Of a stretch of 64,000 nt of DNA, positions 7,766-61,500 are shown piece after piece; position 1 is the first letter of the stretch; every line of letters begins with the position of its first letter. Location of the stretch: NCBI GenBank assembly GCA_000002445.1, contig CP000068.1, forward strand, positions 864,001-928,000, read 5' to 3'. The translations under genes and the position numbers were made by a program. Source of the DNA: Trypanosoma brucei. Lineage: Eukaryota. The notes below the pieces were generated by a model, which searched no databases, had not been told where the DNA came from, and worked only from the letters and a program-made list of their open reading frames with translations.

Positions 7766-10265
7766 CAAAATCTACCATAGTCAAAAACGTTCCTCCCCTT
7801 CATCTTTTCAATTTTGTACTTTCTGTCCTGGCGAACAGACGGAAGAACCTGTAAGTGCGTCTGATATAAATTTTTCTTCCCTTCAATTACATGCTGTCAT
7901 GCGCTACATTCGAATGCGGAAGTCAGTTCCTGCACTCCCCTACAAACCCCCTCTCTCCTCCCCCGCATACCTAATTTTTTTCTTTTCCTCCCTTAAAATA
8001 AGAAACGGGATGCTAAGAGATACCGTGGAAGGTCCCCACTTCGAGAGGTACGATGACATCATCTGCCGTAAAGGCTCCTGAGGTTCAGCTCCAGGAGTAC
8101 TCTTCATGAATGTGATTTATCGAGCCTTTTTGCCTCGCAGGCGACATCCAATATCCCTCCGTGGAGTTATCCTTGTGATTTGTATTCTCCGCATCCCCGA
8201 GCTGTGCTTGTCCCGGTCTATCTTTATTTCTCATAGTCCGAGCGGAGAGTCCCCAAGCCAACGCGGATGGTTCGTGGCCTCCCCATTTTATGCTGCCCTG
8301 CCTCTTTGTTTTGTGTTCGGGAACATGGCTGACGGCTGCTCTCGTATTTATAACGCACCCGGGTTGGTGCTGGGACCCCTTATATTTGAATTTGGAGGGG
8401 TCGGCGTGTGAGACGTTTTTTTTATTTATTTGCTCCGTGGGGGTTTGTATCTTCCTCGGTATCTTCTTCGTGAGCCTCCTCCTGATTGCGCGGGTTTTGT
8501 ACACTTTGGGGATGCTCCCCCGTTTTTTGATCGACGGTTAGGAAAACATTGGGTACCGTCGATGAGGACTCGGTGTTCTGCTGAATCGTCGTGTTTTTGT
8601 GTATATTCCTTGATACTGCTGGGTCGGGACGGTCCTCTAATTCGTTGTTGTTCATACGCCGTTAGTTGTCTGCGTGGGCGGTTTTTGAACTACGCTGTGA
8701 ATGCTTCGATATTGCGTTTCAGTTCATCTTCCGGTGTGAGTTTTCGGCGTAAGTTGAGGCGTCGACCCAGGTATTTTTTAGCGGGGATCGATGAACAAAG
8801 TTCCTCGTATGCGACTTGACCTTCCTGTACGAAACGTTCCCCGTTGTCTTTATTCCCGCTTACCATAAGCTCTTCTTCAACCGCGATCCAAGCCGAGTCG
8901 ATGTTTGTTTCGTCGTGTTTCCAGGACCCACCAATGGACCATAAAGTGACCAGGATAACTGTTATTTAGAATTATCCCTCCTCACCTGTGGGCACTCCCA
9001 TCAGTAGTTATCGTTCAATTCAACGGCTTAACTACTTTTAGTAAGGGAAGTGGATGTTGTGGTTCGCTGTGCAATATCGTCGTTCTGGGGCTGGAAAAAG
9101 CCCCCTTTCACACTGGAGCTAGGGGTTGTAGCATAATCAATCATCGGATTCTGAGTCCAATGTTCCTGATATCGTCCAAGGAGTTTGATGGTGGAAAAAC
9201 ACTTCATTTAACTAACTCCTAGTGCAGATCCCGCTGTGCGAAGACCATCTACCTGGGGTTTCCCAACGTTACCGGCCTGAAGCGCTTCCAGCGGCGCTAA
9301 ACCGTATTTTAATTTGGCGCCCGCAGGATCCCTGCATATTATGGCCTACAGCGGTGGCAACTCCTTACCGTCTGATGAATTCCCTCTCGGTTCCTCTGTC
9401 CCGACTGCCATTGAGCCCTCTCCTGTTCCCACTTCGCAGCGTAGCCGCCAATTCAATACGTCCAAGAACAGGGGTCCCATCACTGGCTGCGAGGGCCTAT
9501 AGCTTCCCGTGCTGTCAGCGCACTTTCCCTCAGGCTCGGTGTGCCAAGTGCTTTTCCTGTCACAACCATTGGTTTTAGAGGGTATATAGGCAATGACAAC
9601 CCCCAGCTATTGTCCCGCAGTTGACCTAACAGATGCTTCTTTGTGTTCCCTGTTTGTTTTAAACCTTCTATTCTATTCATGTCACCCTTTGCCAGCATCA
9701 ATGTTCATATGCCTCTGAACGATGACGTTATTCCGAGTCTTCCTATTCAAATTCTGTTTTGCGTTGCGCTTCTACGTTGCGCCCCCATATTTTCTGCAAA
9801 ATGCGCAGTTCACTTTTTTCTTCGCAAAGGGACCTTGAAAACGTTAATTTTTTTTTTAGCATGGAGGGGCCCCAAGCATTCCATCACGATTCACGCGGGA
9901 TCACGCAGCCATTCTGTTCCACACCCCCGATAACAATACCAGCAGCTGTTTGCAGAACTAAAGGAACAGCTTTCCATGTTCGGAAGAGTTGATATATACC
10001 TCCCCCCGTACTGGCGAGCACCGATGGCTGTGCCGCTACCTCTTTCTCCAGTAGCCGACTGCACACTTCAGCTCTTAAAGGCGCGTGGCCGCTGAGGTGC
10101 ATAGTTTTCTCTCCATAGAATTTTCCGAATCCTGGCACCAAAATGATGGAGCCACTGTCGCTTTGCCCAATCGACAGGAAATGAACGGTATCAAGGCGCT
10201 CTCCTCCGATAGGGTTTTACAACACCGCTGTAACACCAAGTTCACATAATAGACCCGATTTCGTC

Positions 10266-10337
10266 TCCGGTGTGGTATAGTGGCTAGAACAAGCGGCTCT
10301 CACCCGCTAGACCCGGGTTCGATCCCCGGCACCGGAA
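10266..10337 (+). tRNA. tRNA-Glu (anticodon CUC)
   Basis: Cloverleaf read by hand. The acceptor pairs TCCGGTG with CACCGGA. The anticodon stem pairs AGCGG with CCGCT, with loop C-T-CTC-A-C (U33, anticodon CTC, A37). The T-arm pairs CCGGG with CCCGG around loop TTCGATC (B box GGTTCGATCC). An A-box-like TGGTATAGTGG is present, and the discriminator base is A. Confidence 0.85.
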
Positions 10338-10748
10338 GCCTTTTTTGGAGACCAACGTGCAGCTCCGCAAAAGGCTTATGAAAAGACAAAAAGTGGAACC
10401 GGAAAGCCGAACAACGGAAGCTCTCGTTTAGTCAGAAAGGCAACACAGAGGAAGGGTCGTCCCCCACCACGCATAAAATGACGGTGCCCTTCACTTCTTC
10501 ACAGAGCGTGATACCCGTTTGAGGGCAATGAACGATATATGAAGGACAGTTCGAGTGGGCATGAGAGCGCCGTCGCAGTGGCGGCATCGTATTGTTCGGG
10601 TTTTGGTTGGTCAGGTCCGGTTCTCTACTCGCCATTTGGGGCTTCGACACGGTTAAGTAATTTGGCGTGCCTCGTCGAAGGGCGTTATATTAACACAAGG
10701 CCTCTTTTTGGCGACTGCGGTGGTTGTGCGATATGGCCAGTGCCTGGA

Positions 10749-49906: not shown

Positions 49907-51667
49907 TCACTTGATGATATTGGACTCCGCATGTATAGCCAATACTCGTTTAACAAGCTTGTCGCACCACGCTACGTGACGCTCCATAAGCACGTCGTCG
50001 TCCGCTATTGCCCTTTCCGTTGACGTAGCATCCCCCAACCCTTGAGAAGACAAACCAGACGACAAAGACGTGGCCCCTCCCGTTTCATCCGTTCGCACCT
50101 CCATCCGCCGGGAAAGACGACTGCGTAGCTCCATCCATGTCTTTGGGGTCCGCAGGCGTGCATAATTAACCACTGCTACATCGTCAAATGGATAACACAG
50201 GGCGTGCGCGACGCTGACAACGCCACGGGAAACACCCTCTGGTGAGTACCCACCCTCTAGTACCGCCACCAAACCGATGGTCCCTTGCGACTGCAGGCAA
50301 AATCGCTTTAGCGCACGAACCACATACGCAAACCCTCCTTCCACAGCCATCCGCCCAAGTGGATCGCCGTGTGCGGCGTCGAAGCCAAGCGAAAGTAGGA
50401 TGATATTAGGGTGGAATTGTTCCAACCTTGGTAAAAACACATCGTCAACGACACGCGCAAAAAGCATATCACTTATAACCTCTTCGCAACGCGCAGGGTC
50501 GGTAGCCGCGGTGTCAACAGCGACGTTGCAAATATTACGATGTTGGCCAACATAGGAGGTCGCACCAGCGGGATCACACGGGTAAAAAGAACCTCGGTCA
50601 TAACGATGAAGAGAGAGGTACAGAAGTTGCGGCTCAACTTCAACAAATGACTGAGTTCCCTCACCATGGTGTACGTCGATGTCAACTATGGCTATGCGAG
50701 GTCGCTCTGGTATATCCCTTTCTTCGGAGGGAACTGAACGGCTACCTCCGACGCCACAATCGTATTTAACGTGCCAGTCTTGCAACAACTGCATTGCGGC
50801 AATCGCAACATTATTCACCAAACAAAAGCCGCTCGGGGTGTCAGCGCTGGCATGGTGTCCCGGAGGGCGAACAAGGCAAAAAGCAAATGCCGGAGAGCCA
50901 CTGAGGGCGCGACGCGCTGCATCAACCACCGCACCGACAGACAACCGAGTCGCTATACTGCTCGTTTTACCGTTGCAATACACATCTGTCTTAAGTGGAG
51001 GGAGCAATGCTGTGCCCTCTTCAATAAAACATCGGTAGCGATGAATATTGTGACACAATGTAACTTCATCTAGCGTTGCTAAACGGGGCGGAATCCATAA
51101 CGGAGTTCCGCTGGGCGCCGCGGACGGCGTCTCGCCTGCTGTTGCACCAGTTCCCACAGGCGCACCTTCACGAGGAGGGGACCTTTCTCCAGAACTTTGC
51201 AGTTCCATAGGCAAAAAATGAGCAGCACGCGGCGCCGAGCGTAGTGCCTCAACAGCGCGCTGCAAACGATAGGGTGTTTCCGGCACACGGTCAACGGGGG
51301 GAACGTGCTCAAGCACTCTAGGATCGTATGCCCATGCAACTGACACGTCCGGTAGAAACAGGTCACTATTATCATTATCCGTCTTGGCAGCATCCAACAT
51401 GGCAGGTCCAGAAACGAACACTTCCATTCCATTTTTTAGACTTCCAAAAAAGGTGATTCCTTGGGCGTCGACGAGACTTTCAACACCTGAAGCTTCCACA
51501 CCTACACGGAGCGCCACTTGATCAACCGGCTCCACCAGCTTTCCACGACGGATAGCAGCGGTTGTGCAGAGTCGTGGGTCCGCTTGGCACCTAACAGTCA
51601 CGTCACCGTCAAGATCCAGCTGGCGCCCATGAGCCCAGGGATTTTTATTCCGTTCCCTCACAGACAT
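49907..51667 (-). CDS. DAC4: Class II-like histone deacetylase (zinc-dependent HDAC family); probably the T. brucei DAC4 ortholog
   Basis: HDAC catalytic signatures FCLVRPPGHHASADTPSGFCLVNNVAIA, IVDIDVHHGEGTQ, and a downstream GFD...GD motif. The tool start at 51748 is a TTG; the first ATG is at 51667 (586 aa). The gene-symbol assignment is from memory of T. brucei chromosome 5 content, not verified. Confidence 0.8.
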   Translation of the reverse strand: MSVRERNKNPWAHGRQLDLDGDVTVRCQADPRLCTTAAIRRGKLVEPVDQVALRVGVEASGVESLVDAQGITFFGSLKNGMEVFVSGPAMLDAAKTDNDNSDLFLPDVSVAWAYDPRVLEHVPPVDRVPETPYRLQRAVEALRSAPRAAHFLPMELQSSGERSPPREGAPVGTGATAGETPSAAPSGTPLWIPPRLATLDEVTLCHNIHRYRCFIEEGTALLPPLKTDVYCNGKTSSIATRLSVGAVVDAARRALSGSPAFAFCLVRPPGHHASADTPSGFCLVNNVAIAAMQLLQDWHVKYDCGVGGSRSVPSEERDIPERPRIAIVDIDVHHGEGTQSFVEVEPQLLYLSLHRYDRGSFYPCDPAGATSYVGQHRNICNVAVDTAATDPARCEEVISDMLFARVVDDVFLPRLEQFHPNIILLSLGFDAAHGDPLGRMAVEGGFAYVVRALKRFCLQSQGTIGLVAVLEGGYSPEGVSRGVVSVAHALCYPFDDVAVVNYARLRTPKTWMELRSRLSRRMEVRTDETGGATSLSSGLSSQGLGDATSTERAIADDDVLMERHVAWCDKLVKRVLAIHAESNIIK

Positions 51668-54028
51668 ACGATAGAGTTGACTAAGTAAACACTTATCGAT
51701 ATTTATTACGTCGGATGCAGGTAAACAACGAAAAGATAGCAGACACAACCAAAAAAAAACCTGGGTTTGAAAAATACAATTTCGGACTTCCTCTCCGGAA
51801 CCAAGGCATTTATATATTTAAGGCTCCTCACTCAATCATTCCCCTGTTGTCTAAAAGAAAATTTCTCGAATATGAAATGCATTTGAGAGAGGTTGTTTAC
51901 ACCACAAGAGCACCTCATTGTTACACAGACATATCTGTCACCGAGCCTCAGCTACACCAACACGTTCAACTGTTTGTAAATCACAACTAAAGTCGACTGA
52001 GCATACAGGGGAAGTAATGCCCCACACACAGGAACAAATATATATATTTGCTTCAGTATCTGAAGCGCTAAACATCGCTTTAAAGCTCATTATACAACGC
52101 AGCACACACGGTAGTCATCAAAACACTAATACCAACACACCCGCATCCCCCCCCCCGGAAGCCATAATAAATAATGAACACTGGGTAGAACAATCAAACT
52201 CTCCCACAGTTAACTCCGCCGATGTGTCTATTGGCGCTCCACGGTAGAGCTCTTCCACTATTCGAACGAAGTATTCGTAAGTTAATTCAACGCGACACCA
52301 AATATGTGACTCTCGGGTTGTCCAGCAGCTCTTAGCAAAGGGGTAGTATTTCAGTTACACCTGATCTAACAGCTATTCCTCGGCACCGCGCATAGTTAGA
52401 TAGATAACTTACGTTTTCAAAAGTGCACTGCTAACAACAGACACTTTACCACGTCATTTTCTACAACGCAGCAGTGAATATTAACTTTGTCTTTGGGCGA
52501 TGGCTTTGGGAATAGAGTCATCACTGCCACGCCATCGTGTTTTCCCCCTGTATATAACGCAATTTAACCGTTCGTCTTCAAGTGTCAGACCCTCCTTCGA
52601 GAACAAACTTTTTTAAAGAAAAAGAGGAGAGAGTAAGAAGCACGATATGTATATTGCAGACTACCCGCGAGAGTCAGAATGATATCCGTCTTTATCTTAT
52701 CCTTTACCGTTCCCTTGTTATATATTTTCCCCCCGCGACCCGGCTGTATCTCATATCGCGCAACAGGCAGACCAGAAGATTTTCTTTCAAAAGGCCAAAC
52801 GGTGAAGGAGACAGCGTTTACTACCTTGCCGTATTGCTCCACGAAGTCGTGTTATGAGTTGATTCAACGAGTAGATATCCCACTACCAGGCGCTGTTAAC
52901 AACGCAGCTAAGCAGTTATTTGCCAGGTGGGCGAGTCCAGACACACGAACTTATGAGGAATAGAAAACACCTAGTAGAGAATTGTGCGAGAATAAAAAAA
53001 CGAAACAAAAGAAATGATAAGTGAGACCATCTAACCCTAAACATTAGAAGCAACTTCAGCAAACACTTCAGTCGGACCACGCATTAGCACTCCATTGTTC
53101 ACGATGCCATAACGAAGCTACAAACTAACGTGGAAGGTAAGATTTTTACCCGACACCACTACTAAGTTAGGAGTTTCCATATGTGTCCGCTCAGCCAGTT
53201 ACAAAGTACAAAATAAAACATGACACCTCGCTGATAGAAAGTAAATGCGTCCAAACCACGTTGCCAGGGACTCACATTTAAAATGTTAAGAACACTGAAC
53301 AAAGCCGCTACAACTGTGGCAACAAAAAGAATTGGAATATGCAAAAGAAACAAATGATCGGGGGAAACGCAGCATTTCGCAGAATCACCACTGACGTAGG
53401 GCGTGATCCACCAAGCCGTGCGCACATTCTTTAGCGTTATGATGCACCTACACGACCATCAAAAAGGAACACTGACAAGGAAGCTCCCCGCCCAACCGAC
53501 AAACCCATATTAAATCCCCAGGTAATCGAAACGGATAATATTGAATACCATTACAGGAACCTATAATAATTACTCAATATTCTATATTCAAAGTACCCTT
53601 TTTCCTTTTAAAGGAAAAAGATAGAAACCATAGTTAGGTTACGTGCTTTTCATTGTTGCATCCCGACTTTCTAACGTTGTAGTAACTAAATTCAGCTACA
53701 GAAGGGTACATTAGCACAAAAGTGTCTCTCTGTGGTAGGGCTTCGTGATTTGGTATAGAGCATTATGCCACATGCTAATGTGGCACATTTGGAAACCCCA
53801 TGTTGTCATCTCACCACCAAACAAACTAGTAGAGGTAATGCCACATCGGTGCGTACAAATGATATCAAAAACACCTGTGTGTGGCGTGTAACATCTCATT
53901 CGACCCTTATAAAGCCTATTACCAACTATGCTTTGTTGACAATAAGAACGTCGTATTTCCCAATATATAAACGTGAACACATAACTAGCATTTGAATATG
54001 CAAAGAGGAATGGGGAAAATCCACCTCA

Positions 54029-54050
54029 TATATATATATATATATATATA
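54029..54050. repeat. (TA)11 microsatellite
   Basis: Direct read. Confidence 0.9.
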
Positions 54051-54702
54051 TTTTTTCAAAAAAGGGAGAGCACATACGTCTATGTACGACAACAGAGGCA
54101 TGCAAATGTCTGGCTCTTCAAATAATGTACGATAGAACAATGAAGGGACAACAAGGGTAGAAAAAGGCATATCAGCACACCAATGTGCGTATATCAAGCA
54201 TAGGAACTTCAGATAGATTACAAAAAGTTTTTAAAAAAGCACTTACCTGTCGATGGCCATAGTGAAATGACTTTTTATTTACTATACAGGAGTGCACACA
54301 GAATATGGAAAACATAGACGAACAGTCCCGACGGACAAAATATTTTAAGATGGCAAAGAAAAACAAAGGCGTGTCAACAACGGGTAGATGAAATAATGAC
54401 ATCAATGGCCATGGTAGCGACGGTGATGACGACAATAATGGTAGCGAGGAATTTAATACTACAAATATCCCAACGGTAGAAATAATTACGACATGTACAC
54501 GGGCAGTTGTGAGAGGGTTCCAATGCCGGGGTTAGTCAGGTGCGGAACCGCTGCCAAACATTCCTTATACGCAGATAAGCAGCTACCAGAACTATGTTGC
54601 AACTAGAACCTTATCATAGAAAGGGAGAAATATAAGTGATAAGCCTCTTCTGAATCGGTTGGCAAAAAAAAACAATAATGATGCATACCGTTGTCGCCTC
54701 CC

Positions 54703-54704
<2 letters not shown>

Positions 54705-54740
<36 letters not shown>
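54705..54740. repeat. (CA)18 microsatellite
   Basis: cacacaca... for 36 nt inside the divergent strand-switch region. Confidence 0.9.
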
Positions 54741-54743
<3 letters not shown>

Positions 54744-57700
54744 CATAAAGATAGAGAATCGGTGGCATCAACTGACAACCACTGTCACGCTGACACCAAA
54801 GGTAAAGTTCACTCAAGAAATACCTGAGTCCTATGTGCGATTGGTCAACGAAAGTTCACACAAATTTTGCAAACTTGTCATTATCCTACAGAGGACCCTG
54901 TGCGAAAAAAAAAAGTCTCCTCCATTCAATGGACTGCGAAGCTAATAACAGGAAGTAAAGAAGCTGACATGGCCGAGCCGGCAATATACTCACACCCTCT
55001 CAGATAGCGGTTAGAAATCCATAAAGAGAAGTCAGATTCCCGTTGCCTGGTGGCGGTCACACATCTTCGCAACGGCGTGACCCGAGGCGGTGGTGAACTT
55101 TGGAAATTTTTAGCAAAAACATTCCACATATGTTCCTCTTCAGCAGGACATCGCCCTTTAGAGAGGTATTAAAAAGCCATGTACACGCATATGTGCGCAT
55201 TTTGCTGTCGAAAAACAACAGATACCACAAACCCGCATACACATATAAGAGCACAACGTGACAGGGGGGGGGAACGCCTCTACCTACTCAGAAAATTTGG
55301 GTGACCTCTCATCTCTAGTAAGTGAAGACCGGTGACTTGAGCGTTCGGACGTTCTTTGCAATAGAAAGAAACAGCCGTAGCCCGTAAAGATCATAAAGGA
55401 ACATATCGCTAACCAGCTACTGCGGAGAGATGCATACCTTCACATTCCACCATATGCAATCACAAATGCTCCTCCTTCACCTGTTAAACAGATTACCGTT
55501 CCGCAAATAGGTCCCCAGAATGCCGGTAACTTCGCTTCATGCTGATCTCAGTAAGCGTTGGCATCTCCCCCTCTCACGGGCCGCCGCAAAAGAGACCGAC
55601 CCGAGAGGAAATAGCTGCAAAGGAATAACAGAGCCCTCAGTATTACTGCAAAATACACGTCGGTTTTTGTTGTTTTTGTTGTTGTTTTAAAAAATATATA
55701 TCGTTACGAACTACTCTGCTCCGATACGTTGGACCCAGTCGGTCTCGAATGGAGGTGATGTGTCCAATTTCGGCCAAAACGGTATAGGACTGCTGAGAGT
55801 GTCAAGTACTGCTATTGAGGGAAAGACAACCGGTACAAACGCGGCAGTCCCAATAAGCTTACCACACCACGACATCAGCCCAGTTCCACAAAATGTTCAC
55901 AATGTAAAAAAAAATGCTAAGTTGAGCGGAGGCTGCGGGACGCCACTCACATGAGCTTATCCGGCCCCGCGTTGTCTTGTTTGGGACCCTCATACTTCAG
56001 ACAGTGATGCAAACGAAGTAATTATGCGTTGCCATGCCAGGAATGGCACGTGACCCCACGGCTCAGGAAATACCGGCCGGTGTCAGAAAGCGGGGCGGCC
56101 CCAGGTGTTAGATCCCACATGGAACGCGAAACAACACAAAAACTAGTCGGTGATCGGTCCGGCATGATGGTCGATGTCGTTGCCACCCATCCGATGGCAA
56201 AATATTATGAGTTTATGTCAGCGGTCGCTCTTTTCGTGGGGTGAAGGATGCTAATCATACTTTCAAAAACGGTGCGCAGTAGAAGTCCGAAAATGATCCA
56301 GTGAGTCGTCAAATGGCGGGAAAAAAGCGGTGGAGGACACGTGCACCCCAACACGCTGCGATCCAACGAAATCCACTCCCGGAAGGAAGAAAATTTGACC
56401 CCCCGTACCACACACGCACACTCTGATATCGGGTACCGAACCGCCACAAATATAATATGTGTCCAAGAGGTATTCCCGATGGGATTGCAGATTAAGTACC
56501 CATGCGACTGATAGCAATGGCCGCACATTGCACAGCTGTTTAAAAAAAAAAAATTAAAAAAACAGGACGCTTACGACATTCAACCGATAAATACAGGGAG
56601 GAACAGTGCCAAATTGTGCAACATTCGCTTACAACTCACAAGTACTATCGCGTTCAACTCTTCTGGTAGATAACCATGCGCGTGAAAAGCTGCTTTGGCA
56701 AAAAAAAAAAAAGGCATAAGTGCATGGAACGTGATGGCGAAAAACACTCTGCCGTGCCACCGACGGAGGTGCCGTCTGCCTGGAAAGCAACCATCAACGT
56801 GTTTCAGTCAGCTGAACGTATGACTTAGACATGGGGGAGGGGCAGCAAAAAACTGTTGCAGATAAGGGCTAGTGACCCACGATGTTTGCTGAAGTCATCC
56901 ATCCCCGAGCCGCAGTACGGAGAAGGGGTGGGGAAGAGGAATCGTGGCATCGCGATGCCGCACGGAGTAAGGAACGAACCTAACGCTGTCATGATGCCAT
57001 CTTTTCTCACAGCGCGGGCTGGTACGGCTAGTAGGGTGACAGTGTGCATGTCCTTCAGATGGATTCGAGTGTTTGCAAACAGAAATCACGGAAATACCTA
57101 GCAAATATCCAGGTAGTGCGCCCCAAATTAGGGCGCATAACTCAAGTTTTGGGAATTCAGGCTGGAGGGAGGGTGCCGATTCTCATCATAATGGTGTCCA
57201 CATGCTGTGGTACGTTGCCCTTGCTCGACTCTGGCAGGAAAGGTTGGCGGGCCGGTTCTTTACTCAACTATGTCGAACGTGAAGCGGTGTTCCACACCCT
57301 CTGATAATTTATTTGGCTTGGAAGACGGTGCGTCGGCTTCGCACATGTAAGTTTGGTGTAAAGAGATAGGGGCTCTCCCAGTCGAGTGAGAATGTAGGGT
57401 GATGCCTTCTCCCCCGTCTAACCCCATTGTTCGGCGGCAGTGCCGTTCATTCCCCCGTCACAGACCCTTTCGGTGGTGTTAGCGGCTCGAAGGGCGGAAC
57501 GGGAGGCCGCTCCCTCTGTCGGTTACACTTGTCGCCGAATAACGAAGTGCCAGCCTCGGTTGCTCGATTTGCTGTGAGGTCGAGGTGCCGGGTGTTGTGC
57601 CGTTGCTGTTATTTCTTTGACCCAGTTGGGGAGTAATGCCGTTTGAAGATGCACGGTTGAACTTTCGGTGCTCGTGCGTGAGCCGGAACTTGAGAGGAGT

Positions 57701-59346
57701 GAGTTTGACCGGACCGCCTTCATTGTCCGTGCATTTAGTGCTGCTGGTGCTTTTGGCAGTGCGATCTGTTGAGATGGGCCGTTCGTAGAGCCCTTTGCGC
57801 TGAATGAATATTGGATCTGAGATGTTACCTCTAAACTCTCGTGGCATTGTCTCTCCCACACAGTTTTAACGTGAGTTTAATGATAGCACTTGGGCATATT
57901 AAAGGAAGTAATGGGAGAGATCGTCACTGCTTGTTGATAGCGGTCAATCATTTAAACCGGTAAAAACTTGACAGGAGCAGTGAAGGGTGTCGAAAAAGGG
58001 ATGATATGTCTCGCTGGCGAAGGTGTCATCTCTGTGTAAGTAGCTCAACCACCGATCGTGAGAAATGAACTTCATCCATTTGCTTTTCGTGTGATAACAA
58101 CGGGACTAAGCACCGCTTTAGCTCTGCTGACTGCTGTCTATGCATTCAAACTCCGTCAGACGATATCGAGAAGGAACCCGAGATGATTTCCCCTAAGGGA
58201 CGTTTCCTTCATAAATTTTAAAGAGGGTTCGTGTAAATCTAGGTGGTGAAGCAACAATATGACTGTGGTTTGTGTGACCAGTGCCCTTTCGCAGCGTTCT
58301 CGACTGTCAGGAAACTGTAACATATGGTCGGGACTTCTCATGGTTAAATATTTAGATTCAGATTTTAGTTGCTGATATTGGTGTTGCTTCAGATAGCGTG
58401 GAAGGAAATCCCACCGACAATCGTTCGTAAACCCTACCAACAAGTGCGTCGCAGGTATTAAGAGTTGCAATAAATAAATAAATAATTGTCTATCGAACGT
58501 AAAATCTAGTGGGTGACAGTATCAATCACTCGACGTAGCGAGATACCGCGAGGAAGTGTCTTTCGAGATGTAAAAGATAGCATTACAAAGCGGTTGGATA
58601 AGTGTTGCGCACCCTTTGACAGCTGGGTCGCAGTTCTTTCAATTAAAAAAAAATGAGCGGTATTATTTTCGCGTGTTTTGTTGGGTTGCTGCATGACCTA
58701 TGTACAGGTGCTTTAATCTTTACCATTTCTGCCACACCACACACGGCTATGAGCAGCCACCTGTAGAACCTCGGTGAACCGCTCTGTCCTTCTGTTAAGG
58801 ATAAAATGGGACACGGGATAATGAGGAAGTACTATTTAAATATGTCACTGACCTGATGTTTCCTCTACCAGACGTAGTCACTGAGGTGATTTACCCTTTG
58901 CGCAATTAGTTGCGGGGTTAACGCAAATTTTATTTGGGGTGTTGACAAGATTATTGTGTCCTTAAATATGTATTTGTTTATGGATTTATCATGAGTGAAT
59001 GCTCCGTGGCGTCCGGCTCTTGGTATAGTGTTTATTATGGAAAAGCTCGCGGTTGTTGTTCCTGGTTTCGTGTGCGGTATCATACTTTTTTTTTGTTCAC
59101 ACAGCAGTAGGCAGTGCTGGAGCTCGCTGGCGATTAAAAAAATTTTTTCACTGCTTTAATATGTTCAGAGTGTTTGTAAGGCCTGTGTTTTGCCTACTCG
59201 CTGATTCCTCAGAGGTGAAGGTGCTGGGAGGTGCTGTTTCTTCTTCCACTGCTATTATCGCATCTTGACTCGTGTTTTACTGTTTGTTCCTTAGAACTAG
59301 TAGCTCGCAGGAGCGTACCTCACCACCCGCATTATACCCGGGTAAT

Positions 59347-59886
59347 ATGTTAGTCGAACGATCGTACAAAACCTCTTTCCAATATGGACGTGAGGGTGTT
59401 GAGGATGCTACCATTGCGTGTACTATATGTCCATCAATGGAAAAAATCCATATTCGTTTTCCTCGCTCAGTTGATGAAATTAAAAGGTCGATTTCCACCT
59501 ACGTTGCTGTGAATGAAGAGTGCATAAACCTCTATGTGCGGGGATGTGGATGTTTTACCGAGGTTTCTGATGAATCACCGATTGTTGGTGAGTATTACGT
59601 GTTGCTGCGGTTGCGTGCAGGGAAGGGTGGTTTCCGGAAGCAGCTTGAAAAAAAGGGTAGAGCGTTTGCTAGATCTAAGAAGCTGCGGAGCTCGACACGA
59701 CAACAACAAGGAGGCCGATCGGACAAGAATCGCGCCCAACCGATTAAATTGTCGAAGCCTCATTCGGACGATAAGGGTGTTGGTCGAAGAGAGCAGGGGA
59801 ATACTGTTGCTTCCGCAGTTGATATCAGCATCAGGGATGCGGTTTGTTGTGGAGTCAAGCGACTTGTTGAGGGACTAAGTACTTAA
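59347..59886 (+). CDS. Hypothetical protein (179 aa); first gene of the + strand PTU
   Basis: The tool start at 59272 is a GTG; the first ATG is at 59347, right after a C/T-rich tract plus AGs (cttcttccactgctattatcgcatcttgactcgtgttttactgtttgttccttAG). Basic C-terminal half (KKGRAFARSKKLRSSTRQQQGGRSDKNR). No domain was recognised. Confidence 0.5.
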   Translation: MLVERSYKTSFQYGREGVEDATIACTICPSMEKIHIRFPRSVDEIKRSISTYVAVNEECINLYVRGCGCFTEVSDESPIVGEYYVLLRLRAGKGGFRKQLEKKGRAFARSKKLRSSTRQQQGGRSDKNRAQPIKLSKPHSDDKGVGRREQGNTVASAVDISIRDAVCCGVKRLVEGLST

Positions 59887-60120
59887 AGTCAGTGAAGTAT
59901 TTATCTTGCGCTCCAGTAATATTGTATTACCTTACGTTACGGTTCTTCTGTGATGCTTCCCCTTAGGGATAATATGTTTTGCGGATCAGCGAACTGTATT
60001 TTGTTTCCAGTTTGCATTTTCTTTGTGAGTAAACATTATTTACTTTCTTCTCTTGTGCTTCATTTTTCTCTTTAAATACATCATGTGTAGCACAGAATAC
60101 TCTTAGTGTTTGTTCATTTC

Positions 60121-61500
60121 ATGTCCAGAAGTGTTCCGTGGCGGAATACTTGCCCTGAGGCAGTAACCGACATACTGAATCAATTACCTTCTTGCCAGCT
60201 TCTACTAGTCAAGCGAGTTGGGCCGACGAGTTTCCTTTTGAGCAAGCGAGACGGGCTGGTCAAGTACAGGACGTCTATCGGTGACCCCCATAGCTGTTCA
60301 TGTGACGCCTCGCGGGAGCAGTGCATACATGTCGTTTTCGTTTTGTGTAAAGTGTTTTTCTTACCGCGGGAGAATCCTTTAGTATGGCAGCGCTCGCTTG
60401 TTGCAGCAGAAATAGACGAAATCCTTAGGTCCGAAAACCGGCTTCGGAATGCCTGGAAGAATGTTGACGACACCCGCAGGGACGTTGCAGTTCCAAGGCC
60501 TATTGAAGAAGGTGATGTGTGCCCAATCTGTTTTGAAGAGTTTGGGAACGATACCTCTCTTGATTACTGTGGAGGAGGTTGCGGGAAATATATACATACT
60601 CGTTGCTTCAAACAATATAAACGGCACAATCTTGTAGGTCCCTTACGCTGCCCTTATTGCCGGAGCCTTTGGACTAATACGGTGGGTGCTACTAGCAAGA
60701 GGTGCAGTGGTTGCAAAAAATATGCGAATGGTTCCTGCTACAAGTGCTTATTTTGTCAAGAGTACTTTCTTTGTTCAGACTGTTTCCACCGTCGAGAAAC
60801 TCATTCGCATCATCCGTTTTCTTTGGTCGGGACGAGAGAAGTGGCCGAAAGACACGAAGGGAACAGTGCTTTACCCATGCCGGTGTCCAGTGAACCCACC
60901 GTTAGCATTCCTGAGGAGCTACATCCTCTCATGTATAGAGAAATAGACCCCGAAGACTACGAAACACTTCTTCGTCTGGACGATCAAAATAGTAAAAGGA
61001 AACTGACAGCAGAGGAGTTTTCAGTGCTTCACAGCGAGTGTTGGAGTTCTGGATTACTTACCGACGAGTGTAACATATGCTTAGATACATTTGATGTCAC
61101 CAGTGGTTGCGTGTGGTTGCCATGCGGTCATTTTTTCCATACATCGTGCGCTCAGAGATGGCTTACTGAGCACGTAGCAGAATGTCCCATCGATCACATC
61201 CCGGTTGTGGTGGACAGAGCCGATGTTCAGTCATTAACAGTGAATTCTTCATCTTCTGCTGCAGTTGCACCTCACATTCTTCGTCCCTCCAGACCTCGGG
61301 CTCGTGTGTTGCCGAGACGTCGACTCAACGTTCCGTATAGTTCAGCAACTGTTGGAGTCGAACCTCCAGCTCGGAGAAATGCCGAGAGACAAAGGGGTTC
61401 TGATGTATCACTTCCTTTTCTGGAGCTCCAAGCAGTGTCACTAGGTGTCGGACGACGTAGAGGGCGGTACAACGAACAATTCTTTTATGGTACTGTCTGA
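60121..61500 (+). CDS. ZSWIM2/MEX-like E3 ubiquitin ligase: SWIM zinc finger, RING-H2, ZZ-type zinc finger, second RING
   Basis: SWIM: HSCSCDASREQCIHVVFVL (CxCxnCxH). RING 1: CPICFEEF...C...H..C...CPYC. ZZ-type: CSGCKKYANGSCYKCLFCQEYFLCSDCFHRRETHSHHPF. RING 2: CNICLDTF...LPCGHFFHTSCAQRWL...CPIDH. The tool start at 60106 is a GTG; the ATG is at 60121. Confidence 0.75.
   Translation: MSRSVPWRNTCPEAVTDILNQLPSCQLLLVKRVGPTSFLLSKRDGLVKYRTSIGDPHSCSCDASREQCIHVVFVLCKVFFLPRENPLVWQRSLVAAEIDEILRSENRLRNAWKNVDDTRRDVAVPRPIEEGDVCPICFEEFGNDTSLDYCGGGCGKYIHTRCFKQYKRHNLVGPLRCPYCRSLWTNTVGATSKRCSGCKKYANGSCYKCLFCQEYFLCSDCFHRRETHSHHPFSLVGTREVAERHEGNSALPMPVSSEPTVSIPEELHPLMYREIDPEDYETLLRLDDQNSKRKLTAEEFSVLHSECWSSGLLTDECNICLDTFDVTSGCVWLPCGHFFHTSCAQRWLTEHVAECPIDHIPVVVDRADVQSLTVNSSSSAAVAPHILRPSRPRARVLPRRRLNVPYSSATVGVEPPARRNAERQRGSDVSLPFLELQAVSLGVGRRRGRYNEQFFYGTV

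What the first reader, a model, noticed from the sequence alone, without database searches (positions are those of the whole stretch)
51668..59346. 7.7-kb ORF-free divergent strand-switch region with a sharp strand-composition flip near 57.0-57.3 kb
Between the DAC4 ATG (51667, minus strand) and the first + strand ATG (59347) there is no ORF with any recognisable motif. On the + strand, 51.7-57.0 kb is C/A-rich, that is, G/T-rich on the minus strand. Examples are caaacaacgaaaagatagcagacacaacc, (CA)18 at 54705-54740, and acaaacccgcatacacatataagagcacaacg. From about 57.3 kb onward the + strand becomes G/T-rich (ggtggtgttagcggctcgaagggcgg, gttgttgttcctggtttcgtgtgcggtatc, gtgttttgttgggttgctg). This is the signature expected for two divergent pol II start zones, each with a GT-rich coding strand. 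The flip point at roughly 57.0-57.3 kb is a candidate for the nucleosome-depleted centre. A G9 run at 55264-55272 and a (TA)11 at 54029-54050 also lie here.
Basis: partly seen in the sequence, partly recalled or inferred. Interest (0 to 1): 0.5.

Follow-up and report, generated by a model that had tools for sequence, protein, structure and literature searches.

The report
Known divergent transcription start region
This is the gene-free stretch on Trypanosoma brucei chromosome 5 where two long gene arrays start back to back. The strand-composition flip is real and marks the start zone, but this site and this kind of signature were published years ago, so it is ordinary.

Summary
The window is T. 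brucei TREU927 chromosome 5, bases 864001-928000. The finding is the divergent strand-switch region between DAC4 (Tb927.5.2900, minus strand) and Tb927.5.2910 (plus strand).

No ORF exceeds random expectation, and there are no Pfam or Rfam hits. G+T skew on the + strand is -0.124 on the left and +0.129 on the right. A single change point lies at 56799, with a support interval of 56747-57148. It is also the global minimum of cumulative GT skew for all 64 kb.

Kolev et al. 2010 list both flanking gene arrays as "Divergent" Pol II units.

Two corrections apply:
- **Not transcript-free.** Six published trans-spliced non-coding transcripts (Tb5.NT.66-71) tile the region. Only a 1.6-kb core (56260-57863) is left bare, and the flip sits inside it.
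- **Skew strength is not promoter-specific.** The arms (0.130 and 0.116 on the sense strand) match ordinary intergenic DNA inside the arrays (0.118). The published GT-rich promoter 10-mers are no denser here either.

Only the polarity change marks the start zone. The nucleosome-depletion claim is untested. Already known; low interest.

The parts
49907..51667 (-). DAC4 / Tb927.5.2900 coding sequence, the first annotated gene of the minus-strand polycistronic unit
   Evidence: Exact match to XP_844962. PF00850, E 1.3e-57. Kolev Table S14 lists it as the first ORF of a Divergent unit.
51691..51691 (-). Mapped spliced-leader acceptor site of DAC4 (5'UTR 24 nt)
   Evidence: Kolev Table S12 gives chr5 915691. 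AG and a polypyrimidine tract lie immediately upstream on the minus strand.
51810..52607 (-). Tb5.NT.66, a published trans-spliced novel transcript (797 nt). It contains a G10 run in the RNA sense, seen as C10 on the + strand at 52147-52156.
   Evidence: Kolev Table S7. AG plus a polypyrimidine tract lie at the 5' end. The homopolymer is listed.
52724..52970 (-). Tb5.NT.67 (246 nt), listed as putatively non-coding
   Evidence: Kolev Tables S7 and S11. AG at the 5' end.
53100..53984 (-). Tb5.NT.68 (884 nt)
   Evidence: Kolev Table S7. AG at the 5' end. The (TA)11 at 54029-54050 lies in the spacer just upstream.
54054..54649 (-). Tb5.NT.69 (595 nt; alternative acceptor site at 54609)
   Evidence: Kolev Tables S7 and S12. 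AG at both 5' ends.
54701..56259 (-). Tb5.NT.70 (1558 nt). Its 5' end is the outermost processed 5' end on the minus strand. The (CA)18 at 54705-54740 forms its 3' end, and the G9 at 55264-55272 lies inside it, antisense.
   Evidence: Kolev Table S7. AG at the 5' end. Runs are listed.
56260..57863 (.). Core of 1.6 kb with no mapped processed transcript. Both divergent initiation zones are inferred to lie here. GC is 0.51-0.57, against 0.40-0.48 in the arms.
   Evidence: It is the gap between the NT.70 and NT.71 5' ends.
56747..57148 (.). Support interval of the GT-skew polarity flip (best point 56799)
   Evidence: Change-point scan: log-likelihood ratio 51.9, against a shuffled maximum of 15.9. 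Global cumulative-skew minimum at 56798.
56260..56798 (-). Candidate minus-strand initiation zone. Sense GT skew is +0.184. It includes the T12/T7/T13 tracts, seen as A-tracts on the + strand at 56542-56712.
   Evidence: Function is inferred, not shown.
56799..57863 (+). Candidate plus-strand initiation zone. Sense GT skew is +0.129. The strongest block is 57299-57798 (GT +0.208); GC is about 0.57 over 57201-57800.
   Evidence: Function is inferred, not shown.
57864..59157 (+). Tb5.NT.71 (1293 nt, 0.05 RNA per cell), the first processed transcript on the plus strand
   Evidence: Kolev Table S7. AG plus a polypyrimidine tract lie at the 5' end.
59295..59886 (+). Tb927.5.2910: acceptor site at 59295, coding sequence 59347-59886. 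It is the first annotated gene of the plus-strand unit.
   Evidence: Exact match to XP_844963. Kolev Tables S12 and S14. AG at 59293-59294.

Best explanation
The region is a typical divergent strand-switch region of T. brucei, that is, a pair of back-to-back RNA polymerase II transcription start regions.

**Proposed mechanism.**
- Pol II initiates in a dispersed, strand-biased way inside the 1.6-kb core (56260-57863).
- It runs leftward on the minus strand towards DAC4 and rightward on the plus strand towards Tb927.5.2910.
- The primary transcripts are cut by trans-splicing and polyadenylation at polypyrimidine/AG signals from the first few hundred bases onward.
- This yields five low-abundance non-coding RNAs on the left (NT.70 to NT.66) and one on the right (NT.71) before the first protein-coding mRNAs.

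**Composition.** Each arm has the G+T-rich sense strand that all transcribed non-coding DNA of this genome has. The single sharp change of polarity at about 56.8-57.1 kb is therefore the boundary between the two transcription directions.

**Shown versus inferred.**
- Shown: gene orientation, the flip, the positions and splice signals of the published transcripts, and the published classification as Divergent units.
- Inferred: the exact initiation sites within the core, any causal promoter role for the GT-rich blocks, and the chromatin state (H2A.Z/H2B.V, H4K10ac, SPARC).
For: **Gene layout and flanking genes.**
- Minus-strand genes run from 12.6 to 51.7 kb and plus-strand genes from 59.3 kb.
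- The flanking genes are Tb927.5.2900 and Tb927.5.2910.

**Coordinates.**
- The window equals chr5 position minus 864000, derived from two splice sites and their UTR lengths.
- All 12 tested published 5' ends follow AG plus a polypyrimidine tract on the correct strand.

**Published evidence.**
- Kolev Table S14 lists both units as Divergent.
- Table S7 places NT.66-70 on the minus strand and NT.71 on the plus strand. All point away from a bare core at 56260-57863.

**Composition.**
- The GT change point at 56799 lies inside that core.
- It is the global cumulative-skew minimum of the window. The maximum lies at the convergent strand-switch region.
- Wedel 2017 TSR-enriched 10-mers are 20:3 sense to antisense in the left arm and 5:2 in the right arm.
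- In T. congolense, the 3.9 kb upstream of DAC4 shows the same sense-strand GT skew, +0.09 to +0.22.

**Literature.**
- Initiation occurs at the 5' end of H2A.Z peaks, where sense-strand G/T-rich 10-mers are most enriched (PMC5579346).
- Start regions are 5-10 kb wide (PMC9566855).
Against: - I could not read any locus-specific 5'-triphosphate, Pol II or histone-variant profile. The exact start sites and chromatin state at this locus are therefore not shown here.
- GT skew (0.130 and 0.116) and TSR 10-mer density (3.9 and 2.0 per kb) in the arms are no higher than in ordinary intra-array intergenic DNA (0.118 and 4.5 per kb). The composition alone therefore does not prove promoter activity.
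- Kolev's units are called 'putative'.
Confidence: 0.93

Rival explanations
1. The GT polarity is a consequence of divergent transcription, not its cause. It would reflect transcription-coupled mutation bias together with selection for polypyrimidine and U-rich processing signals in the tiled non-coding transcripts. The GT-rich blocks next to the flip would then not be promoter elements. Initiation would be set by chromatin, or by a different, sequence-specific core promoter. This rival agrees that the site is a divergent start region but disputes the reader's 'GT-rich signature equals start zone' logic.
For: - Sense-strand GT skew of the arms (0.130, 0.116) equals that of 18 ordinary intergenic segments inside the arrays (weighted mean 0.118). 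Coding sequence has 0.030.
- Wedel 10-mers are as dense in intra-array intergenic DNA (4.5 per kb) as in the arms (3.9 and 2.0 per kb).
- The arms are almost fully tiled by processed RNAs, each with a polypyrimidine tract upstream.
- The SPARC paper found no common motif under promoter peaks and notes that promoters may be heterogeneous.
Against: - Wedel et al. showed that synthetic GT-rich elements drive orientation-dependent transcription and H2A.Z deposition.
- The skew persists in the bare core upstream of the first splice sites, where there are no mature RNAs: 0.184 on the left and 0.129 on the right.
Confidence: 0.4
2. The flip is mainly a replication signature. The region would be an origin of bidirectional replication, and the skew would switch because leading and lagging strands switch there.
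For: In T. brucei, ORC1/CDC6 binds at the boundaries of transcription units, and 19 of 42 mapped early origins centre on divergent strand-switch regions (PMC3607257). An origin here is therefore possible.
Against: - The skew is about four times stronger in non-coding than in coding DNA of the same strand (0.118 against 0.030). This points to RNA-level or transcription-linked causes.
- Polarity follows transcription direction at both the divergent and the convergent switch, 46 kb apart.
- No chromosome 5 origin list could be read.
Confidence: 0.07
3. The stretch hides a decayed or unannotated protein gene, retroelement or structured RNA gene, and the composition reflects that.
For: In T. cruzi, T. 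theileri and T. grayi, DAC4 has further same-strand genes directly upstream. Gene loss in T. brucei is therefore conceivable.
Against: - tblastn of those neighbouring genes against the window finds nothing.
- ORF lengths match random expectation, and there are no Pfam or Rfam hits.
- No repeats were found beyond low-complexity tracts.
- There is no DNA or translated similarity to the T. congolense upstream region.
- None of NT.66-71 appears in Kolev's lists of conserved or peptide-supported novel ORFs.
Confidence: 0.03

Closest known systems
Divergent transcription start regions (dTSRs, or divergent strand-switch regions) of T. brucei. Sources: Siegel et al. 2009 (from my own knowledge; the paper is not held); Kolev et al. 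2010, PMC2936537; Wedel et al. 2017, PMC5579346; Staneva et al. 2022, PMC9566855.
   Same: - Head-to-head polycistronic units.
- A gene-free stretch within the published 5-10 kb width of start regions.
- Outward-pointing first splice sites.
- A sense-strand G/T bias that changes polarity in the middle.
- This very locus is listed as Divergent in Kolev Table S14.
   Different: Nothing substantive. The arms are asymmetric: 5.1 kb with five processed RNAs on the left, and 2.5 kb with one on the right.
GT-rich dispersed Pol II promoters (Wedel et al. 2017)
   Same: The published sense-strand 10-mers occur with the right polarity in both arms: 20:3 on the left and 5:2 on the right. A G10 run lies on the sense strand of the left arm.
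   Different: Their density is not above ordinary intra-array intergenic DNA in this window. No promoter assay exists for these fragments.
Leishmania major chromosome 1 strand-switch region and the G-to-C / T-to-A strand skew of trypanosomatid gene arrays (McDonagh et al. 2000, cited in PMC5579346)
   Same: Compositional polarity follows transcription direction and switches at the divergent region.
   Different: Different genus. From my own knowledge, the Leishmania region is much shorter (under 1 kb); I did not test this.
Bidirectional CpG-island-type promoters of metazoa
   Same: Dispersed initiation, a GC-richer core and divergent transcripts. Kolev et al. draw this comparison themselves.
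   Different: There is no CpG enrichment here (observed/expected 0.8-1.1, the same as the flanks). The products are polycistronic and trans-spliced.

Membership tests
T. brucei divergent Pol II transcription start region (dTSR) | Two polycistronic gene arrays pointing away from each other across a gene-free stretch | tested here: met
   ORF map. Flanking genes identified. No gene is called in the T. equiperdum annotation.
T. brucei divergent Pol II transcription start region (dTSR) | Experimental evidence of initiation (5'-triphosphate RNA enrichment) at the locus | tested here: met
   Literature look-up only. Kolev 2010 Table S14 lists both units as 'Divergent' putative Pol II units. The underlying read profile was not seen.
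T. brucei divergent Pol II transcription start region (dTSR) | The first trans-splice acceptor sites on each side point outward from a central zone | tested here: met
   NT.70 5' end at 56259 (minus) and NT.71 5' end at 57864 (plus). AG plus a polypyrimidine tract was verified in the sequence.
T. brucei divergent Pol II transcription start region (dTSR) | Broad enrichment of H2A.Z/H2B.V, H4K10ac and H3K4me3, with Pol II and SPARC peaks at the inner ends | not testable with these tools
   No ChIP-seq tracks are available. The data exist under GSE98061.
T. brucei divergent Pol II transcription start region (dTSR) | G/T-rich sense strand with a polarity switch between the arms | tested here: met
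GT-rich promoter element (Wedel 2017) | Strand-asymmetric occurrence of the published 10-mers, with sense exceeding antisense | tested here: met
   20:3 in the left arm and 5:2 in the right arm.
GT-rich promoter element (Wedel 2017) | Enrichment of those 10-mers at the 5' end of the start region relative to other DNA | tested here: not met
   Core halves have 5.6 and 2.8 per kb and the arms 3.9 and 2.0 per kb. Intra-array intergenic DNA of the same window has 4.5 per kb. Counts are small.
GT-rich promoter element (Wedel 2017) | Orientation-dependent promoter activity and H2A.Z deposition in a reporter context | not testable with these tools
   Requires transfection experiments.
Sequence-specific Pol II core promoter (Cordon-Obras 2022) | Presence of the defined promoter sequence elements | not tested
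   The paper is not held, so no motif was available to scan.
ORC1/CDC6-bound replication origin at a strand-switch region | ORC1/CDC6 ChIP peak and a marker-frequency peak | not testable with these tools
   No chromosome 5 coordinates appear in the accessible text.

The most novel reading that the evidence does not exclude
The two start regions may be interleaved rather than simply back to back. The + strand G9 (55264-55272) and the 27-nt G/T-only run (55662-55688) lie 1.1-1.5 kb inside the left arm, antisense to Tb5.NT.70. They might form an additional plus-strand GT-rich initiation element. Plus-strand transcription would then begin well to the left of the composition flip and overlap the minus-strand unit. 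A related possibility is that the 1.6-kb core is one compact bidirectional promoter whose axis is the flip. Either case would make this locus a convenient natural test of whether GT-rich elements or chromatin set the direction of transcription.
Probability: 0.1. Interest if true: 0.3.

Novelty: already known. Interest (0 to 1): 0.12.

Why it matters
It matters little beyond confirmation. This locus is already catalogued as a divergent Pol II start region. The sense-strand G/T bias and its switch at such regions have been described since 2000-2017.

The useful points are methodological. In this genome a cumulative GT-skew extremum locates the boundary between two transcription directions to within a few hundred bases from sequence alone. 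Here it falls inside the 1.6-kb gap between the first mapped splice sites. The magnitude of the skew, however, cannot be used as a promoter detector, because ordinary intergenic DNA inside gene arrays has the same skew and the same density of published 'promoter' 10-mers.

Tried and rejected
**Hidden gene or decayed gene.**
- tblastn of the T. cruzi, T. theileri, T. grayi and T. congolense DAC4 neighbours against the window found nothing.
- A Pfam scan of the ten longest ORFs found nothing.

**Structured RNA.** Rfam gave nothing at gathering score or at E <= 1, and ARAGORN gave nothing in the region.

**Repeats or mobile-element remnants.** Only low-complexity A/T and CA tracts were found.

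**G-quadruplex motifs.** No canonical G3 motif with loops of 1-7 nt occurs anywhere in the window. In the region, only one overlapping relaxed-loop (1-12 nt) motif was found, on the minus strand at about 53.5 kb.

**Conservation.**
- T. equiperdum is 99.5% identical. The differences are microsatellite lengths and assembly Ns, so the comparison is uninformative.
- The T. congolense upstream region shows no similarity by blastn or tblastx.

**Locus-specific chromatin or origin data.**
- The supplements of the SPARC paper do not mention these genes.
- The text of Tiengwe 2012 gives no chromosome 5 origin positions.
- Siegel 2009 and Cordon-Obras 2022 are not held.

**Promoter 10-mer enrichment.** The polarity is right but the density is not above background.
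Full report
**Identity of the window.**
- The two ORFs that bound the finding are identical to T. brucei brucei TREU927 proteins. The first is XP_844962/AAZ11403 (histone deacetylase 4, DAC4). The second is XP_844963/AAZ11404 (a conserved hypothetical protein). DAC4 carries the histone deacetylase domain, PF00850, E 1.3e-57.
- Kolev et al. 2010 (PMC2936537, Table S12) give the splice acceptor site of Tb927.5.2900 at chr5 915691 with a 24-nt 5'UTR. They give that of Tb927.5.2910 at 923295 with a 52-nt 5'UTR.
- These values place the start codons at 915667 and 923347. Those are window 51667 and 59347 with a single offset of 864000.
- I tested that offset on 12 published 5' ends. Every one is immediately preceded by AG and a polypyrimidine tract on the correct strand.
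- The window is therefore Tb927_05_v4:864001-928000.

**Gene layout.**
- Plus-strand genes occupy 1-7.8 kb and minus-strand genes 12.6-51.7 kb. Plus-strand genes resume at 59.3 kb.
- A tRNA-Glu lies at 10266-10337, in the convergent switch region.
- The finding is therefore the divergent strand-switch region between two polycistronic units.

**Check of the observation.**
- Both boundaries are exact. All quoted sequence strings and the three simple repeats are at the stated positions, apart from one wrong first letter.
- The longest ATG ORF in the 7679 nt is 122 aa, within the 102 +/- 19.5 aa seen in shuffled sequence.
- The ten longest ORFs have no Pfam match. Each reading frame holds over 100 stop codons.
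- There is no Rfam match even at E <= 1 and no tRNA. The T. equiperdum annotation calls no gene in the stretch.
- + strand GT skew is -0.124 for 51668-57000 and +0.129 for 57300-59346.
- A one-change-point likelihood scan puts the flip at 56799, with a 2-lnL support interval of 56747-57148. The log-likelihood ratio is 51.9, against a maximum of 15.9 in 300 block shuffles.
- Position 56798 is the global minimum of cumulative GT skew over the whole 64 kb. The global maximum, at 10938, falls in the convergent switch region.
- Runs of nine or more G/T-only or A/C-only bases tell the same story. They are almost all A/C up to 56712 and almost all G/T from 56925.

**What is in the 'empty' stretch.** Kolev's Table S7 lists six novel trans-spliced, polyadenylated transcripts here.

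| Transcript | Window coordinates (5' to 3') | Strand | Length (nt) |
|---|---|---|---|
| Tb5.NT.66 | 52607 -> 51810 | minus | 797 |
| Tb5.NT.67 | 52970 -> 52724 | minus | 246 |
| Tb5.NT.68 | 53984 -> 53100 | minus | 884 |
| Tb5.NT.69 | 54649 -> 54054 | minus | 595 |
| Tb5.NT.70 | 56259 -> 54701 | minus | 1558 |
| Tb5.NT.71 | 57864 -> 59157 | plus | 1293 |

- Their abundances are 0.05-2.1 RNAs per cell.
- NT.67 is on Kolev's non-coding list. None of the six appears in the lists of conserved or peptide-supported ORFs.
- Both arms are therefore almost completely tiled by processed, apparently non-coding RNAs that point away from the centre. The only stretch without a processed transcript is 56260-57863 (1.6 kb).
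- The composition flip sits inside that gap. It is 540 nt from the first minus-strand acceptor site and 1065 nt from the first plus-strand one.
  - (CA)18 is the 3' end of NT.70.
  - (TA)11 lies in the spacer between NT.69 and NT.68.
  - The G9 lies inside NT.70, on the antisense strand.

**Published status.**
- Kolev's Table S14 lists Tb927.5.2900->Tb927.5.2770 (minus) and Tb927.5.2910->Tb927.5.3090 (plus) as 'Divergent' putative Pol II transcription units.
- Wedel et al. 2017 (PMC5579346) showed that Pol II and 5'-triphosphate RNAs peak at the inner (5') end of the H2A.Z-enriched regions. They found that 10-mers enriched on the sense strand are mostly G or T runs and are most frequent in the first fifth of the start region. 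They also showed that synthetic GT-rich elements drive orientation-dependent transcription and H2A.Z deposition. They cite earlier reports of the G-to-C and T-to-A skew.
- Staneva et al. 2022 (PMC9566855) describe start regions as 5-10 kb wide, with one or two SPARC peaks at divergent ones.

**How specific is the GT signature?** I compared the arms with other sequence in the same window, always on the sense strand.

| Sequence class | GT skew | Wedel 10-mers per kb, sense (sense:antisense) |
|---|---|---|
| Coding sequence | 0.030 | 0.80 (27:16) |
| 18 intergenic segments inside the arrays | 0.118 (range -0.002 to 0.227) | 4.5 (74:24) |
| Left arm | 0.130 | 3.9 (20:3) |
| Right arm | 0.116 | 2.0 (5:2) |
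| Bare core, left half | 0.184 | 5.6 (3:1) |
| Bare core, right half | 0.129 | 2.8 (3:0) |

- The 10-mers are the 157 from Wedel's Dataset EV1.
- The polarity is as expected for a start region. Neither the strength of the skew nor the density of the published promoter words separates the region from ordinary transcribed non-coding DNA.
- What identifies the start zone from sequence is the change of sign alone.
- Whether GT-richness helps to cause directional initiation here, or is only a by-product of transcription and processing signals, remains open. I give the by-product reading 0.4.

**Other features of the core.**
- GC rises to 0.51-0.57, against 0.40-0.48 in the arms, without CpG enrichment.
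- Three long A-tracts (A12, A7, A13) cluster at 56542-56712, just left of the flip. On general knowledge, tracts of this kind disfavour nucleosomes. Wedel et al. saw nucleosome depletion over homopolymeric G and T stretches.
- The 'nucleosome-depleted centre' is thus plausible but untested.
- No canonical G-quadruplex motif is present, and there is no significant repeat.

**Comparative context.**
- T. equiperdum has the same region at 99.5% identity.
- In T. congolense, the 3.9 kb available upstream of DAC4 shows the same sense-strand GT skew (+0.09 to +0.22) but no sequence similarity.
- In T. cruzi, T. theileri and T. grayi, DAC4 lies inside a gene array with further same-strand genes directly upstream. 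Synteny downstream of DAC4 (the AAA_5 protein and a DnaJ protein) is kept. The T. brucei switch region therefore coincides with a synteny break.
- L. tarentolae has about 8 kb of ORF-poor DNA upstream of DAC4.

**Rivals.**
- A replication-origin cause of the skew is unlikely to be primary. The skew is about four times stronger in non-coding than in coding DNA of the same strand, and it follows transcription direction at both switches. An origin at this site is not excluded.
- A hidden gene or element is not supported by any search.

1. The flip is at about 56.75-57.15 kb.
2. Six published non-coding transcripts tile the arms.
3. The magnitude of the skew is not promoter-specific.
4. Nucleosome depletion is untested.

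The feature is an already catalogued divergent Pol II start region of ordinary size and composition, so interest is low.

Noticed in passing
window 55264-55272 and 55662-55688: A G9 run and a 27-nt G/T-only run (ggtttttgttgtttttgttgttgtttt) lie on the + strand inside the left arm, antisense to Tb5.NT.70. They are the main exceptions to the A/C-run pattern left of the flip. They resemble the published GT-rich promoter words but in the opposite orientation.
   Followed up: partly
window 56542-56712: A cluster of long A-tracts (A12, A7, A13) lies within 170 nt, immediately left of the composition flip. They read as T-tracts on the minus-strand sense. This is the most likely nucleosome-disfavouring spot of the core.
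   Followed up: no
window 56946-56959: A perfect 14-nt palindrome, GGCATCGCGATGCC, lies inside the flip support interval. About 0.5 such palindromes are expected by chance in 7.7 kb, so it may mean nothing.
   Followed up: no
window 8000-12600: This is a convergent strand-switch region with a tRNA-Glu(CTC) gene at 10266-10337. The global maximum of cumulative GT skew is at 10938. Kolev's Tb5.NT.63 (8003-8721, plus) and Tb5.NT.65 (12405->11245, minus) flank it.
   Followed up: partly
window 59347-59886: Tb927.5.2910 has no Pfam domain. It is reported to co-purify with the spliceosomal PRC5 and SmD1 complexes and is suggested to be a trypanosomatid-specific splicing factor (PMC8682746).
   Followed up: partly
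window 60106-61500: The mechanical ORF for the RING/ZZ-finger protein Tb927.5.2920 starts at GTG 60106 (464 aa). The mapped splice site (60091) with its 30-nt UTR, and the T. equiperdum gene call (459 aa), place the real start at ATG 60121.
   Followed up: yes
L003 12040-13293; L004 12370-13644; L005 12128-13333: T. cruzi, T. theileri and T. grayi share a conserved gene of 401-424 aa (54-60% identity among them) between DAC4 and the large AAA_5 protein gene. It has no counterpart anywhere in the T. brucei window. These species also have several same-strand genes upstream of DAC4, so DAC4 is not at a strand switch there.
   Followed up: partly
L006 1-10000: In Leishmania tarentolae, about 8 kb upstream of DAC4 has no called gene and few long ORFs. 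Cumulative GT skew reaches its minimum near 2070. This may be another start region with DAC4 as its first gene. Downstream of DAC4 lies a cysteine peptidase array rather than the Trypanosoma neighbours.
   Followed up: partly
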